64,000 nucleotides of DNA, taken from assembly GCA_048884965.1 (NCBI GenBank), contig JBHLQH010000009.1, positions 32,001 through 96,000 on the forward strand, read 5' to 3'. Each line of letters begins with the position of its first letter. The first letter of the stretch is position 1. The stretch comes from Candidatus Thorarchaeota archaeon. GTDB taxonomy: Archaea; Asgardarchaeota; Thorarchaeia; Thorarchaeales; Thorarchaeaceae. The translations under genes and the position numbers were made by a program. Shown here in pieces: positions 51,662-54,984 of the stretch. Below the pieces are notes generated by a model that saw only the letters and a program-made list of their open reading frames with translations, did no database searches and was not told where the DNA came from.

Positions 51662-52042
51662 ATGTCCGATCCTGTTATGGATGCATATACACAAGCGTAT
51701 AATACGTCAGGTCAGATGGTCCAAGCCTTTGGTGTCATAAAAGGCGACGGCTCTGTTCTCTGGCAAAGTAACAACTGGAGTCTAGAAGCTGATGCTAAGA
51801 GCCTAGTTGCAGCTGTAAATAATAGGGCTGCAAGCGTCACTCAGAACCAGGTGAAATACAGCACGATGCGTACAAGCCCAGAAAGCCTTGTTGCCCGCAG
51901 TATTCAAGGCAATGGAATCTTGATTCTTGCAAGGATCGAAGGTGACAAATGGGTCGTCGCGTGGGCGTCCCCGGATGCTGCTCCGGACGGCGTCTATGTT
52001 GATGTTGACCGTGCTGCAAAATCCCTTAAGGGAAGAATCTAG
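51662..52042 (+). CDS. Asgard profilin homologue 1
   Basis: 126 aa; AFGVI..DGSVLWQSNNW, QVKY, GNGILIL, WVVAW..P match the Asgard profilin pattern recalled from Lokiarchaeal profilins (QTENW, IKY, GKGH); GGTGA SD. Confidence 0.8.
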   Translation: MSDPVMDAYTQAYNTSGQMVQAFGVIKGDGSVLWQSNNWSLEADAKSLVAAVNNRAASVTQNQVKYSTMRTSPESLVARSIQGNGILILARIEGDKWVVAWASPDAAPDGVYVDVDRAAKSLKGRI

Positions 52043-52052
52043 TTCTACGTAT

Positions 52053-52070
52053 GGGGGAACCACTTCCCCC
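52053..52070 (+). terminator. GC hairpin between the two profilin genes
   Basis: GGGGGAA-CCAC-TTCCCCC. Confidence 0.55.
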
Positions 52071-52111
52071 TGAACTTGATTTGAAATTCAAATCTGAGGT
52101 GTGATGATTCT

Positions 52112-52471
52112 CTGTCACTAGATGATATTTGGACGCATCTTTATTCTCATAATAACAAGATTCAGGCCTTTGCAGTGATTAGCGCAGGCAAGATTGTCTG
52201 GCAGACAGACAATTGGAATCTCGTGGACTCTGTTTCATCATTGCTTGAAGGTGTGACAAAACGAGCAGGGACCATCGAAGTATCGAATATTCCCTACCAG
52301 ATCGGTGAAGCGACTGGTGATTCGCTTATCGCAACATCAACAGAGGGGAAAGGTCATGTTCTCATGGCTAAGACAAAGAATGATGCTTGGTTTGTCGCAT
52401 GGGCGACGCCAGACTCTATTTCAGACCTCACCATTATCGATCTCAAGTATGCTGCATCCAAGGTGAGGTAG
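52112..52471 (+). CDS. Asgard profilin homologue 2 (probable CTG start)
   Basis: QAFAVI..GKIVWQTDNW, IPY, GKGHVLM, WFVAW; similarity to profilin 1 extends upstream of the GTG at 52175 to (M)SLDDIWTHLY; GAGGTG at 52096-52101. Confidence 0.75.
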   Translation: MSLDDIWTHLYSHNNKIQAFAVISAGKIVWQTDNWNLVDSVSSLLEGVTKRAGTIEVSNIPYQIGEATGDSLIATSTEGKGHVLMAKTKNDAWFVAWATPDSISDLTIIDLKYAASKVR

Positions 52472-52906: not shown

Positions 52907-53641
52907 TTATTTGAATAGGAGATCTCGAATCTTCTTATGAATCTCAATGTATTCCTCATTTCCTAAGGCATACATCTGCAAGAGAAACTCGTACATGTCC
53001 AGAACATCCTTGTCTGCAACATCGCTACGAATCAGTTTCACAATCTCTTTCCGTGCTGCAAGCTCGATTTTCAAGGCATCAAACCTAAGGTTCTCGAACC
53101 TCTTCTGTTCCTCCTCAGTTATATTGATCTTGAAATGCTGCATCATCTTCTGAGTGACTTTCTCGTTCTTCTTCCTGAGCATCTTCTCATCAGCGGCACT
53201 CAACACTCCTGTGATTAGGACAAAGCCTCCTGCTGTTCGTCTATAGTAATCTGTGGTTCTCTTTCCTGTGGTGACTGTGCCCAGCTTTATCACATACCCC
53301 ATTTCAATGAGCTTTGGTAAGTGATGATAGACCTGATTCTTGGTCACATTCTCGACATACTCGATGTCTTCTGACATCTTGACAATCTCTACAACTGACA
53401 GAGCTTTCCTTGTGACCTCACGTTGACGAATGATTGTATCGCCGGTTTCAGGATCCTTCGTCTTGGTGGTCTTTGTATCTTCAACTCCTTTTCTCAATAC
53501 TTGAAGGATGGCTAGACGTACGCTATCATCGAGCTCCTTCGCTCGGTCTATATCATATACGAATTCAATATCAGGTACTGCTTTCTTGGCCTCAGGAGTC
53601 AATTCAATGCCTTCCAAGGTGTCGGTTATATCATCGTCCAT
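52907..53641 (-). CDS. Winged-helix (ArsR-like) transcriptional regulator with helical C-terminal domain
   Basis: DSVRLAILQVL, LSVVEI, NQVYHHLPKLIEMGYV, YYRRTA; GGTGA SD. Confidence 0.82.
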   Translation of the reverse strand: MDDDITDTLEGIELTPEAKKAVPDIEFVYDIDRAKELDDSVRLAILQVLRKGVEDTKTTKTKDPETGDTIIRQREVTRKALSVVEIVKMSEDIEYVENVTKNQVYHHLPKLIEMGYVIKLGTVTTGKRTTDYYRRTAGGFVLITGVLSAADEKMLRKKNEKVTQKMMQHFKINITEEEQKRFENLRFDALKIELAARKEIVKLIRSDVADKDVLDMYEFLLQMYALGNEEYIEIHKKIRDLLFK

Positions 53642-53688: not shown

Positions 53689-53792
53689 TGGTATATTAAA
53701 GTTTTGTTAGATGAACCGTTTTAGGCACGAATGAAAATTACATAATAGTTTGGTATACAAACCTTTATATGGAAATGTTGTGGTGTATAAAC
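53689..53792. promoter_or_regulatory. Divergent promoter with two TATA boxes and three operator-like boxes
   Basis: TTTAATA (minus, 53694-53700) and TTTATAT (plus, 53764-53770); TGGTATATTAAAG 53689, TGGTATACAAAC 53751, TGGTGTATAAAC 53781. Confidence 0.65.
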
Positions 53793-53803
53793 TGTGAACA
53801 ATC

Positions 53804-53911
53804 ATGGCGTTAGAAAGCAACTCACGAACCGAATCTGGAACAAAGAACAAGAAGATCGCACAGTCAATCTCGACTGCAGCTATCCGATACGCATACGCTT
53901 ACAGGAGGTAA
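53804..53911 (+). CDS. Micropeptide A, 35 aa (MALESNSRTESGTKNKKIAQSISTAAIRYAYAYRR)
   Basis: ATG about 34 nt after the TATA box; C-terminal motif shared with the next ORF; not in ORF track. Confidence 0.75.
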   Translation: MALESNSRTESGTKNKKIAQSISTAAIRYAYAYRR

Positions 53912-53917
53912 GAAACG

Positions 53918-54004
53918 ATGGCACTTGTTAAGAAGCAAAGCATGAAGCCAAGGAATACGATTTCAACTCAAGCAATACGCTTTTCCTACATCTATAATAG
54001 GTGA
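53918..54004 (+). CDS. Micropeptide B, 28 aa (MALVKKQSMKPRNTISTQAIRFSYIYNR)
   Basis: Strong SD AGGAGGT embedded in the last codons of peptide A; paralogous to A. Confidence 0.78.
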   Translation: MALVKKQSMKPRNTISTQAIRFSYIYNR

Positions 54005-54009
54005 TTCAA

Positions 54010-54129
54010 ATGACTCGCGAATCAAGATCCCTGAGCTCAAATGAGCGATTTAACGCAGCATACACCATTGATAAGATTCGCCGGCAAGAAATCACGACCA
54101 AAGATGTTCTTGAACTAGAGGCGACCTAG
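54010..54129 (+). CDS. Micropeptide C, 39 aa (MTRESRSLSSNERFNAAYTIDKIRRQEITTKDVLELEAT)
   Basis: SD AGGTGA overlaps the stop of B, 5 nt before the ATG; ends inside the terminator hairpin. Confidence 0.65.
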   Translation: MTRESRSLSSNERFNAAYTIDKIRRQEITTKDVLELEAT

Positions 54130-54147
54130 TCGCCTCCTTCTCTTTTT
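54118..54147 (+). terminator. Hairpin + U-tract terminator of the micropeptide operon
   Basis: GAGGCGAC-CTA-GTCGCCTC followed by CTTCTCTTTTT. Confidence 0.75.
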
Positions 54148-54174
54148 GAAACAGGCTCTATTGATACTGTACAG

Positions 54175-54984
54175 CTACTTTCTGAAGACGATTTGGTAGA
54201 ATGTGTCATTCATTACGTAGGTGACTTCTACTTCCTTTGCTCTTTCAGGAAGGTATTCCAGAGGTGGTTTGGCGGCAAAGAGGCTATTCGCCTTTATGAT
54301 CTCTTGACCTCTGTCAGTCCCTCGCAGTCTGGGAGAAACTCCCTCATCGATCACAATGACAAATCCATCCTTCTTTACAATTCTGAGCATCTCTTCTAAG
54401 GCTCCGGATATATCTGAGAAAGTATTGATTCCTCCAGTATGTAGCACGATATCGAAGGTATTGTCAGGATAGGGAATATTAAACACACTACCATGTACAA
54501 GATTGATTGTTAGACCGAGCTTCCCTGCTTTTCTTTGGGCAACGTGAAGCATCCCCCATGAGACATCAAGTCCATGCAGATTGAAACGTCCCATCTTTCC
54601 TTTGAATGCACTCTCAAGAGCTTCAAAGTTAGCTGCTGTGCCTATGCTCACGTCAATGATCTTTGACGGACCTTCTATTGGTATGAACTGGGTGAATCCT
54701 TGTCGTTCCTTGTTTATATCTATATCAAGCCACTCATTGTACTGCTTGACAGCTTCATCATACCCCTCTGCCATCTGATCATATTCCTCAATCCATTTCT
54801 TGTCCTCGTCGGTCAGATCTGGGAAAAGAAGTGAGGGGATTCCATCAATGATTGGCCAATGATGGCCCTTCTCACAGGTCAAGGATCCGTTATCAACGCC
54901 ATCAGTCTGCTCTGTCACATCTGATATCCTAAGGCCGTTTTTGCATTTTGGACATCGTAGAAGATTAAGGTGTGGTGTTTGCAT
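54175..54984 (-). CDS. Class I SAM methyltransferase with N-terminal Trm112-like zinc ribbon
   Basis: LLRCPKC...LTCEKGHHWPIIDGIPSLL; IDVSIGTA, GLDVSWGML, IPYPDNTFD, EMLRIVK. Confidence 0.82.
   Translation of the reverse strand: MQTPHLNLLRCPKCKNGLRISDVTEQTDGVDNGSLTCEKGHHWPIIDGIPSLLFPDLTDEDKKWIEEYDQMAEGYDEAVKQYNEWLDIDINKERQGFTQFIPIEGPSKIIDVSIGTAANFEALESAFKGKMGRFNLHGLDVSWGMLHVAQRKAGKLGLTINLVHGSVFNIPYPDNTFDIVLHTGGINTFSDISGALEEMLRIVKKDGFVIVIDEGVSPRLRGTDRGQEIIKANSLFAAKPPLEYLPERAKEVEVTYVMNDTFYQIVFRK

What the first reader, a model, noticed from the sequence alone, without database searches (positions are those of the whole stretch)
53804..54147. Hidden three-micropeptide operon with paralogous IST.AIR[YF].Y.Y.R peptides, divergent from a wHTH regulator
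Seen: the apparently empty 530-bp gap holds a complete transcription unit. It runs TATA (53764), ORF A 35 aa, SD AGGAGGT, ORF B 28 aa, SD AGGTGA, ORF C 39 aa, then hairpin + U tract. A and B both start MAL, have a basic variable linker and end in ISTAAIRYAYAYRR / ISTQAIRFSYIYNR. The shared residues often use different codons (ATC/ATT, TCG/TCA, GCT/GCA, ATC/ATA, CGA/CGC, TAC/TAT), which suggests selection on protein sequence. Each terminal Arg codon plus stop doubles as the next SD. Established: short peptides encoded divergently from their regulator occur in bacterial peptide signalling (Rgg/SHP), and tandem precursors occur in RiPP clusters. I know of no such system described in Asgard archaea. 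Inference: a peptide-regulator circuit (signal, co-repressor or anti-repressor), RiPP precursors, or small basic nucleic-acid/ribosome-binding effectors.
Basis: partly seen in the sequence, partly recalled or inferred. Interest (0 to 1): 0.88.

Follow-up and report, generated by a model that had tools for sequence, protein, structure and literature searches.

The report
Thorarchaeota three-micropeptide operon, regulator-linked copy
The "empty" gap holds a real mini-operon for three tiny proteins (35, 28 and 39 residues) that only one family of Asgard archaea (Thorarchaeota) carries, usually in several copies; it is tied to a neighbouring DNA-binding regulator and to a lineage-specific membrane transporter, but its cellular role is still unknown.

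Summary
Observation confirmed. ORFs A (53804-53911), B (53918-54004) and C (54010-54129) are real genes. The same A-B-C unit lies divergently upstream of the orthologous winged-helix regulator in 48 of 61 named Thorarchaeota loci. It is under purifying selection. It was found in 68 of 76 genomes of that family and in 0 of 224 genomes of 29 other Asgard families.

The scan had already found this family in other Thorarchaeota genomes. Added here:
- A palindrome (GTTTG-N5-CAAAC) abuts the TATA box in about 37 of 42 regulator-linked loci.
- The same operator-TATA module precedes a lineage-specific MFS transporter gene in this genome.
- Other copies have an A-B-MFS layout in place of A-B-C.
- A conserved 3' hairpin contains C's stop codon and shows covariation.
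- The 70-residue "B-C fusions" in public databases are gene-calling artefacts.

A and B are hydrophilic and cationic (median net charge +5 and +6). C is mildly acidic. No known protein or RNA family matches any of them.

Function is inferred only. Most likely (about 0.35) the peptides work with the MFS transporter, as modulators or as cargo, under the neighbouring repressor. No description was found in the literature searched.

The parts
52907..53641 (-). Divergent winged-helix regulator, 244 aa. ArsR/PadR-like wHTH plus a C-terminal helical domain.
   Evidence: Weak Pfam HTH_5, HTH_20 and PadR hits. AF2 model with pLDDT 85.7. Best fold matches are PH1932 (1ULY/2CWE, E 4e-8), then PadR and VanR. 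Orthologues in 23 of 24 family genomes.
53748..53762 (.). Palindromic operator GTTTG-N5-CAAAC. It ends one base before the TATA box, at the BRE position.
   Evidence: Sequence. A palindrome with at most one mismatch is present in 41 of 42 regulator-linked loci. It starts 15-16 nt before a TATA-like heptamer in about 37 of them. Only three such operator-TATA modules exist in the whole genome.
53764..53770 (+). TATA box TTTATAT, 40 nt before ORF A's ATG.
   Evidence: Sequence. Same spacing in many orthologous loci, with TATA at -40/-41.
53793..53798 (+). Weak SD-like TGTGAA, 5 nt before A's ATG. Orthologues have GGTGAA here.
   Evidence: Upstream sequences of the orthologues.
53804..53911 (+). 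ORF A, 35 aa, net charge +5. N-terminal MAL, a variable basic linker and a conserved C-terminal motif ST.A[IL]..AY.YRR.
   Evidence: HMM E 5e-14 genome-wide. dN/dS below 1. Synonymous codon diversity at conserved residues.
53903..53909 (+). SD AGGAGGT for ORF B, made of A's two last Arg codons and the first base of its stop.
   Evidence: Sequence. The last two codons are xGG-AGG in most family members.
53918..54004 (+). ORF B, 28 aa, net charge +6. Paralogue of A.
   Evidence: HMM E 4e-9.
53999..54005 (+). SD AGGTGAT for ORF C, overlapping B's last Arg codon and its TGA stop.
   Evidence: Sequence. Equivalent AGGTAGAT in most relatives.
54010..54129 (+). ORF C, 39 aa. Variable polar N-terminal part and a conserved C-terminal [IL][TS]..[ED]VL.[LW]EAT.
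   Evidence: HMM E 1.4e-11. For the N-terminal part, pN/pS is 0.39 in frame against 1.6 and 1.9 out of frame.
54118..54136 (+). 3' hairpin, 8 bp. ORF C's stop codon (54127-54129) spans its loop and the first base of the 3' arm.
   Evidence: In most relatives it is a 12-bp stem with another register that also holds the stop codon: 88% of cells paired, covariation above all 500 shuffles.
54137..54148 (+). Pyrimidine/T-rich tract after the hairpin; likely transcript end.
   Evidence: A T-rich tract follows the hairpin in most copies.
54175..54984 (-). Convergent neighbour (context only): Trm112-like zinc ribbon fused to a class I SAM methyltransferase.
   Evidence: Pfam and NCBIfam. Conserved next to the regulator-linked copy in 20 loci. 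No functional link shown.

Best explanation
This is the regulator-linked copy of a multicopy micro-operon found only in Thorarchaeota.

Shown:
- Three tiny protein-coding genes are transcribed from one promoter. They are chained for translation, because each next Shine-Dalgarno sequence lies in the last codons of the preceding ORF.
- The unit ends in a conserved hairpin that contains C's stop codon, followed by a T-rich tract.
- A and B are hydrophilic, cationic paralogues with a predicted helical, Tyr-rich C-terminal motif. C is polar to acidic with a short hydrophobic-acidic C-terminal helix.

Inferred, about 0.65: the divergent ArsR/PadR-like protein binds the palindrome that abuts the TATA box and so controls the operon. 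The position over the BRE suggests repression.

Inferred, about 0.35: the peptides work together with a lineage-specific MFS transporter. The same operator-TATA module precedes such a transporter gene in this genome, and in other copies the transporter takes the place of gene C (A-B-MFS). Two forms of this reading remain open. A and B could be cytoplasmic modulators of the transporter, like MntS in the MntR-MntS-MntP circuit. Or they could be cationic effector peptides that the third component handles, with C sequestering them or the MFS exporting them.
For: Coding and conservation:
- Same A-B-C order, frames and motifs in 17 of 19 related genomes and 48 of 61 named loci.
- Architecture among collected copies: two peptides plus C in 30, one peptide plus C in 9, three peptides plus C in 3.
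- dN/dS 0.08-0.56. In-frame signal for C's variable part. Varied synonymous codons at conserved residues.
- Found in 68 of 76 family genomes and 0 of 224 genomes of other Asgard families.
- One metatranscriptome contig (217 nt, 97% identical) covers 53818-54031 and nothing else of the 2.2 kb laid. This is a weak hint of transcription.

Regulation:
- The palindrome abuts the TATA box in about 37 of 42 loci.
- The regulator has a DNA-binding fold.
- In three genomes with a single peptide match (G010, G016, G017), that copy is the regulator-adjacent one.

Hairpin:
- 12-bp stem, 88% of cells paired against 28-51% when the partners are slid.
- 57 cells changed on both sides against 28 +/- 4 in shuffles.
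- The Leu codon CTC/CTT covaries with the stop codon TGA/TAA.
- Hairpin-plus-T sites are not enriched in the surrounding 20 kb.
- The main-register hairpin motif (the register that most relatives have) occurs only in micro-operons in this genome.

Transporter link:
- The operator-TATA module occurs three times in the genome. One is here and one precedes a 36-codon leader ORF plus an MFS gene.
- The MFS orthologues in two sister genomes carry the same operator.
- Two peptide genes are followed by the MFS gene, or the MFS gene by peptide genes, in the same orientation in at least five genera.
- The MFS family was found in 13 of 15 family genomes and in none of 9 others.

Composition: median net charge is +5 (A), +6 (B) and -3 (C), and GRAVY is about -0.7 for all three.
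Against: - No experiment and no direct evidence of translation.
- The window copy has no transporter next to it. Its link is one shared operator, seen only in one genus.
- Most copies are self-contained, ending in a hairpin and a convergent gene, so a transporter is not obligatory.
- Export of hydrophilic 30-residue peptides by an MFS carrier has little precedent (my own knowledge).
- The peptides lack any signal sequence or transmembrane segment.
- No tool placed A, B or C in a known family.
- Part of the C-terminal conservation is explained by embedded RNA signals (SD, hairpin) rather than by protein function.
- Binding of the regulator to the palindrome is inferred from position and synteny only.
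Confidence: 0.45

Rival explanations
1. An intracellular trio that binds polyanions. A and B are abundant, conditionally made basic micro-proteins that coat or bind nucleic acid or ribosomes, like small acid-soluble spore proteins, Coxiella ScvA or ribosome hibernation factors. C is an acidic partner or chaperone made in equal amounts.
For: Net charge +5 and +6, hydrophilic, no signal or transmembrane segment, conserved aromatic residues. Multicopy, with within-genome homogenised copies that suggest dosage: 84-96% identity between paralogues against 70-78% to orthologues. Several promoter classes. Tight translational coupling suggests fixed stoichiometry.
Against: It does not explain the recurrent adjacency to, and shared operator with, MFS transporter genes. 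There is no homology to any nucleic-acid-binding family. Some genera keep only one peptide or none.
Confidence: 0.25
2. Cis-acting regulatory ORFs. A, B and C are leader or arrest-type peptides whose translation, not their product, matters. Ribosomes are relayed from A to B to C, and the last one melts the hairpin that holds C's stop codon. This would set transcript termination or stability, or the expression of a downstream transporter.
For: In all three ORFs conservation is concentrated in the last 12-14 codons, with variable upstream parts. Stops overlap SDs and the stop of C lies inside a covarying hairpin. ORF lengths of 26-39 codons resemble known arrest peptides (own knowledge). Some copies sit directly upstream of an MFS gene.
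Against: Most copies have no downstream gene in the same orientation, only a T tract and then a convergent gene. The N-terminal MA[LI]xK is conserved too. Residues are kept through varied synonymous codons. Multicopy homogenised units are odd for a cis element. The window copy keeps the peptide motif of C with a differently placed hairpin.
Confidence: 0.12
3. The peptides are ligands of the divergent regulator (signal, co-repressor or anti-repressor), as in Rgg/SHP-type peptide signalling.
For: Divergent pairing is conserved in 48 of 61 loci. The regulator has a C-terminal helical domain that could bind a ligand. In three genomes with a single peptide match, that copy is the regulator-adjacent one.
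Against: About seven other copies in this genome lie far from all five regulator paralogues. The regulator fold is PH1932/PadR-like, not TPR. The peptides are hydrophilic and cationic with no export or processing signal. Conserved divergent pairs are explained more simply by the regulator controlling the operon.
Confidence: 0.08
4. A and B (and perhaps C) are RiPP precursors, matured by enzymes encoded elsewhere.
For: Tandem paralogous short precursors with conserved ends and a variable middle. A SAM methyltransferase is a conserved convergent neighbour of this copy. An S9 peptidase gene shares the promoter palindrome of the other copies.
Against: No maturase family (YcaO, radical SAM, LanM and the like) lies next to any copy. 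Neighbours differ between copies. The variable part is Lys/Asn/Thr-rich with almost no Cys. The conserved part is C-terminal and partly dictated by the SD.
Confidence: 0.04

Closest known systems
MntR-MntS-MntP circuit of E. coli and other hydrophilic small-protein modulators of transporters such as SgrT-PtsG (own knowledge; lead from earlier scan note e1-5424185)
   Same: A transcription factor's operator precedes both a small-protein gene and a transporter gene. The small proteins are hydrophilic, unannotated and under 45 residues.
   Different: There is no homology. Here there are three chained peptides, many copies per genome, an archaeal promoter and an MFS carrier of unknown substrate. 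No interaction has been shown.
Leaderless multi-peptide and two-peptide bacteriocin operons (aureocin A70, garvicin KS, enterocin L50; class IIb with an immunity gene) (own knowledge)
   Same: Two to four tandem paralogous cationic peptides of about 30 residues without leaders. They are made in equal amounts and followed by a third 'handling' gene. There is a link to a transporter.
   Different: Bacteriocin peptides are hydrophobic and amphipathic and use ABC exporters. These peptides have GRAVY about -0.7, have no ABC transporter and are chromosomal in stable syntenic sites. No antagonistic activity is known.
Ribosome arrest or leader peptides (TnaC, SpeFL, ErmCL, fungal arginine attenuator peptide) (own knowledge)
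   Same: 24-35 codons, with conservation focused on the C-terminal residues. The stop codon is embedded in RNA signals. Some copies lie upstream of a transporter gene.
   Different: Most copies regulate no downstream gene. The N-terminus is conserved as well. There are three in a row, and the unit is multicopy.
Rgg/SHP and other RRNPP peptide-regulator pairs
   Same: Small peptide genes lie divergent from a transcription factor.
   Different: The regulator is a PH1932/PadR-like wHTH, not HTH plus TPR. The peptides are hydrophilic and cationic, not hydrophobic pheromones. No export or import machinery was identified.
PH1932 of Pyrococcus horikoshii (PDB 1ULY/2CWE) and two-domain PadR regulators (for the neighbouring regulator)
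   Same: wHTH followed by a helical C-terminal domain. Foldseek E 4e-8, TM 0.49-0.60.
   Different: Only 20% identity. A beta-hairpin insertion and an acidic N-terminal extension are present. The ligand is unknown.

Membership tests
Thorarchaeota three-micropeptide operon (family known only from this scan) | Two A/B-type peptides with ST.A[IL]..AY.Y(R)R followed by a C-type peptide ending in VL.[LW]EAT, chained by SDs | tested here: met
   Profile matches at E 5e-14, 4e-9 and 1.4e-11. Same architecture in 30 of 56 collected copies and 35 of 61 named loci.
Thorarchaeota three-micropeptide operon (family known only from this scan) | Restricted to one Asgard family, several copies per genome | tested here: met
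   68 of 76 against 0 of 224 genomes. 1-12 profile matches per genome. About eight copies in this genome.
RiPP gene cluster | Precursor genes next to one or more maturase genes | tested here: not met
   Neighbours of the copies share no family. The flanks here are a regulator and a Trm112-domain methyltransferase. No YcaO, radical SAM or lanthipeptide synthetase is present.
RiPP gene cluster | Post-translational modification of the core peptide | not testable with these tools
   Needs mass spectrometry.
Rgg/SHP (RRNPP) peptide signalling | Regulator with HTH plus a peptide-binding TPR domain | tested here: not met
   The AF2 model matches PH1932 and PadR two-domain wHTH proteins. No TPR is present.
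Rgg/SHP (RRNPP) peptide signalling | Short hydrophobic exported and processed pheromone | tested here: not met
   GRAVY about -0.7, net charge +5 and +6, no signal sequence.
Leaderless multi-peptide bacteriocins | Tandem small cationic leaderless paralogous peptides | tested here: met
Leaderless multi-peptide bacteriocins | Amphipathic, hydrophobic membrane-active helices and a dedicated ABC exporter or immunity genes | tested here: not met
   The peptides are hydrophilic. No ABC transporter is at any copy. An MFS gene is at some copies.
Ribosome arrest / leader peptides | A downstream gene in cis whose expression depends on the ORF | tested here: not met
   At this locus, C is followed by a hairpin, a T tract and a convergent gene. 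The feature is met only in the A-B-MFS copies elsewhere.
Ribosome arrest / leader peptides | Ribosome stalling on the nascent peptide | not testable with these tools
   Needs toeprinting or ribosome profiling.
Known RNA families (Rfam) | Match to a covariance model | tested here: not met
   Only two sub-threshold snoRNA-like hits inside the regulator gene. None lies in the operon or hairpin.
Toxin-antitoxin / defence systems (PADLOC) | Match to a defence or toxin-antitoxin profile | tested here: not met
   No hit for A, B or C.

The most novel reading that the evidence does not exclude
A and B are cationic peptides that Thorarchaeota export through their own lineage-specific MFS carriers, with the neighbouring wHTH protein as the switch. 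This would be the first peptide-based cell-to-cell signal or antagonism system in Asgard archaea. In this reading, gene C or the transporter protects the producer. An even stranger variant that is not excluded: the basic peptides bind the stop-codon hairpin of their own mRNA, in the manner of lambda N and boxB.
Probability: 0.15. Interest if true: 0.85.

Novelty: new variant of a known kind. Interest (0 to 1): 0.6.

Why it matters
Thorarchaeota are among the archaea closest to eukaryotes, and almost nothing is known about their small proteins. This report describes an unannotated gene family that nearly every member of the lineage keeps, often in several homogenised copies. It has dedicated operators, is linked to a lineage-specific transporter, and has an unusual 3' hairpin that holds a stop codon.

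If the peptides modulate or travel through the transporter, they would define a new small-protein-transporter circuit in archaea. If they bind nucleic acid or ribosomes, they would be a new class of archaeal chromatin or translation factors.

There is also a practical point. Gene callers miss these genes, or fuse them under a wrong genetic code, so Asgard annotations lack a conserved family.

Tried and rejected
- Complex prediction on A+B+C with alignments: score 0.02, no verdict, controls not run. This is neither for nor against binding.
- AF2 of an artificial read-through concatenation A-B-C (NCBI table 6, 17 paired rows; a device for co-folding, not a claim of natural fusion). The three conserved motifs are predicted helical, with pLDDT up to 86, but there is no confident packing (pTM 0.25).
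- 'Rosetta-stone' B-C fusions of 70 residues in the public protein library looked like support for a B-C interaction. They translate only with TAG read as Gln and are gene-calling artefacts.
- Exact look-up: this genome's proteins are not in the collection.
- No hits for A, B or C in Pfam, NCBIfam, PADLOC, PDB profile searches or the ESM Atlas. Rfam gave nothing in the operon.
- Viral contigs: the alignment was too variable for a protein scan, and the hairpin pattern gave 0 matches.
- The first genome-contig scan with the single regulator protein found nothing. The alignment-based scan worked.
- Genome-wide count of GTTTG-N5-7-CAAAC alone: 17 against about 14 expected, so it is not informative without the adjoining TATA box.
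Loci with the window's spacing have only one site.
- RNA runs: only one contig of one metatranscriptome covers part of the operon. The uncovered flanks prove nothing.
- Literature searches found no description of such peptides in Asgard archaea.

Full report
**Observation.** Between the regulator gene (52907-53641, minus strand) and a convergent methyltransferase gene (54175-54984, minus strand), the plus strand carries three small ORFs.
- A: 53804-53911, 35 aa.
- B: 53918-54004, 28 aa.
- C: 54010-54129, 39 aa from the ATG.
- The TATA box TTTATAT lies at 53764-53770.
- AGGAGGT (53903-53909) is built from A's two last Arg codons and the start of its stop codon.
- AGGTGAT (53999-54005) is built from B's last Arg codon and its stop codon.
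- An 8-bp hairpin (54118-54136) is followed by a T-rich tract.

**The ORFs are real genes.**
- The neighbouring regulator has orthologues in 23 of 24 genomes of the same family. In 17 of 19 fetched loci the same ordered peptides lie divergently upstream, sometimes with GTG or TTG starts.
- In 61 named loci from public species genomes, all labelled Thorarchaeota or Promethearchaeota, 48 carry the unit. Of these, 35 have two peptides plus C, 2 have three peptides plus C, and 6 have one peptide plus C. The 13 without it are mostly distant paralogues or truncated contigs.
- A and B fall into one alignment with the motif MA[LI]xK ... ST.A[IL]..[AS]Y.Y(R)R. C ends in [IL][TS]..[ED]VL.[LW]EAT.
- Close pairs give dN/dS of 0.08-0.56 in eight of nine informative comparisons.
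- For C's variable N-terminal part, pN/pS is 0.39 in frame against 1.6 and 1.9 in the other two frames, from three pairs only.
- Conserved residues use many synonymous codons: Ser five, Ala four, Thr and Ile three. The terminal Arg is mostly AGG, so the final 'RR' is partly an SD constraint.
- A metatranscriptome holds one 217-nt contig, 97% identical, over 53818-54031. This is a weak hint of transcription, because DNA can be present in such libraries.

**Distribution.**
- The A-type profile finds matches in 68 of 76 genomes of this family, besides the window's own genome, and in none of 224 genomes from 29 other families of the phylum (smaller sample).
- A profile search of 1.84 billion representative proteins returns 47 hits. 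Of these, 46 are 29-70 residues long and the remaining one (439 aa) looks spurious. They are unnamed or called 'hypothetical protein'.
- No match was found in Pfam, NCBIfam, PADLOC, PDB, the ESM Atlas or Rfam. None was found in viral contigs, and no paper was found.
- The scan's own notebook shows that the family was met before in other Thorarchaeota genomes.

**Other copies in this genome.**
- The profiles find about seven more copies on contigs C53, C1, C81, C40, C11, C29, C62 and C32. None is near the five regulator paralogues.
- Several sit at contig ends, including both ends of C40, because a sub-family is 84-96% identical over about 250 bp.
- Orthologues at the same syntenic site in sister genomes are only 70-78% identical. 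The copies are therefore homogenised within the genome or recently duplicated.
- Neighbours differ between copies, but each copy keeps its own synteny across genera. The unit is self-contained and not obviously mobile.
- The window copy has no nucleotide-level twin in the genome.

**Regulation.**
- In regulator-linked loci a palindrome GTTTG-N5-CAAAC (at most one mismatch) is present in 41 of 42. It starts 15-16 nt before a TATA-like heptamer in about 37 of them, so it covers the BRE position. About a dozen loci have a second copy some 54 nt downstream, near the expected transcription start.
- In the window the palindrome is at 53748-53762, one base before the TATA box.
- The regulator's AF2 model (pLDDT 85.7) is a winged helix with a helical C-terminal domain. 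It is closest to PH1932 (1ULY/2CWE, E 4e-8) and then to PadR and VanR.
- That this protein binds the palindrome is an inference from conserved divergent synteny and position. A site over the BRE suggests repression, from established knowledge of archaeal promoters.
- In three genomes with a single peptide match (G010, G016, G017), that copy is the regulator-adjacent one. This suggests that it is the founding copy.
- The other copies use a different promoter with a GT[AC]ACA-N3-TGTGAC palindrome. In this genome the same palindrome also precedes a bactofilin-domain gene and an S9 peptidase gene.

**The 3' hairpin.**
- In most relatives the last seven codons of C, its stop codon and the next four bases form a 12-bp stem with a GAAG loop, followed by a T-rich tract.
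- On 57 distinct sequences, 88% of cells pair, against 28-51% when the 3' partners are slid. Fifty-seven cells differ on both sides, against 28 +/- 4 in shuffles (0 of 500 reach it). Four pairs show compensatory change.
- The Leu codon CTC/CTT covaries with the stop codon TGA/TAA. A Leu/Trp replacement covaries with a silent change in the Ala codon. The RNA structure is therefore itself selected.
- In the window and its closest relatives the hairpin has another register (Glu-Ala-Thr codons against the bases after the stop), yet the peptide motif is kept. The peptide end is therefore selected as well.
- Hairpin-plus-T sites are not enriched in the surrounding 20 kb (15 against 13.2 expected). 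The main-register hairpin motif (the register of most relatives) occurs only in micro-operons in this genome.
- Its most likely role is to form or protect the 3' end. A ribosome that reaches C's stop codon would have to melt the hairpin. This is noted but not interpreted further.

**Link to a transporter.**
- The operator-plus-TATA module occurs only three times in the genome. One is this operon. One lies on contig C5 before a 36-codon ORF that ends in Phe-Arg-Arg-stop (again forming AGGAGGT), followed by a 488-aa MFS transporter gene. The third is a weaker match.
- The MFS orthologues in two sister genomes have the same operator.
- This MFS family is itself lineage-specific and multicopy: 13 of 15 family genomes, 0 of 9 others, eight copies here.
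- In at least five genera, two A/B-type genes are followed in the same orientation by such an MFS gene with no C and no hairpin. In other cases peptide genes follow or sit between MFS genes. Peptide and MFS genes lie within about 3 kb of each other in 7 of 14 genomes.
- Earlier scan notes had reported this link in other genomes. It holds here.

**Function (inferred).**
- A and B are hydrophilic and cationic (median net charge +5 and +6, GRAVY about -0.7) and have no signal or membrane segment. C is mildly acidic, with median net charge -3.
- Tight coupling suggests equal amounts of the three products. The conserved motifs are predicted helical.
- My best reading, at about 0.35, is that the peptides act with the MFS carrier under the same repressor. 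They could be MntS-like cytoplasmic modulators. Or they could be cationic effectors that the third gene handles, with C sequestering them or the MFS exporting them.
- Rival readings and their weights: an intracellular nucleic-acid or ribosome binder (0.25), cis-acting arrest or relay ORFs (0.12), ligands of the regulator (0.08), and RiPP precursors (0.04).
- Structure-based tests of A-B-C assembly gave no answer.

**Comparison and novelty.** The operon is not a member of any described family (see the membership table). It works most like small-protein-plus-transporter circuits or leaderless multi-peptide operons, but it differs from both in peptide chemistry, copy number, lineage and the stop-codon hairpin. 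I rate it a new variant of a known kind (a conserved small-protein operon under a local regulator). There is a real chance of something more novel once its target is known.

Noticed in passing
L131:1360-3000 (G000 contig C5:172359-174002): A near-identical operator-TATA module drives a 36-codon ORF that ends in Phe-Arg-Arg-stop (forming AGGAGGT), followed by a 488-aa MFS transporter. A class II micro-operon starts right after it, at the contig end.
   Followed up: partly
L127:136-1485 and L128:227-2200 (G000 contigs C2 and C88): The palindrome GT[AC]ACA-N3-TGTGAC and the promoter of the other micro-operon copies also precede a bactofilin-domain gene and an S9 (prolyl-oligopeptidase family) gene. 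This suggests a second regulon.
   Followed up: partly
L130:1423-1542 (G000 contig C53); also L019 and L065: A third promoter class. These copies are preceded by a fourth small ORF of about 36-39 codons, ending near ..[DE]GG.., whose stop overlaps the first peptide's start. A TPR protein with a Lys-rich N-terminus lies divergently upstream.
   Followed up: no
L037:289-501, L038:1142-1354: Public metagenome gene calls list 70-residue 'B-C fusion' proteins. They translate only with TAG read as Gln, so they are artefacts of code choice on short contigs.
   Followed up: yes
G000 contigs C40 (both ends), C11, C29, C62 and C5 (ends): Contigs break inside near-identical micro-operon copies, so the true copy number is probably underestimated in this and similar assemblies.
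   Followed up: partly
L008, L038, L074 and about 15 other loci (alignment A8): A, B and C lie in one reading frame, separated only by single TAA and TAG stops plus two codons. This is probably a by-product of the fixed 6-nt spacer. Programmed read-through was not tested.
   Followed up: no
L011:911-1051 and L092 (around 785-828): In two relatives C's stop codon is lost and the ORF runs on (47 aa in L011), and the usual hairpin is absent.
   Followed up: no
window 54175-54984 (-): A Trm112-like zinc ribbon is fused to a UbiE-type SAM methyltransferase. It is a conserved convergent neighbour of the regulator-linked copy in 20 loci, and its 3' end lies 46 nt from C's stop.
   Followed up: no
window 51662-52471 (+): Two tandem small proteins. 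The first has a sub-threshold Pfam Profilin hit (E 4e-4), consistent with an Asgard origin.
   Followed up: no
G000 contig C1:86531-90411: A paralogue of the MFS transporter (C1:86531-87952, minus strand) lies 1.7 kb from a paralogue of the regulator (C1:89686-90411, plus strand).
   Followed up: no
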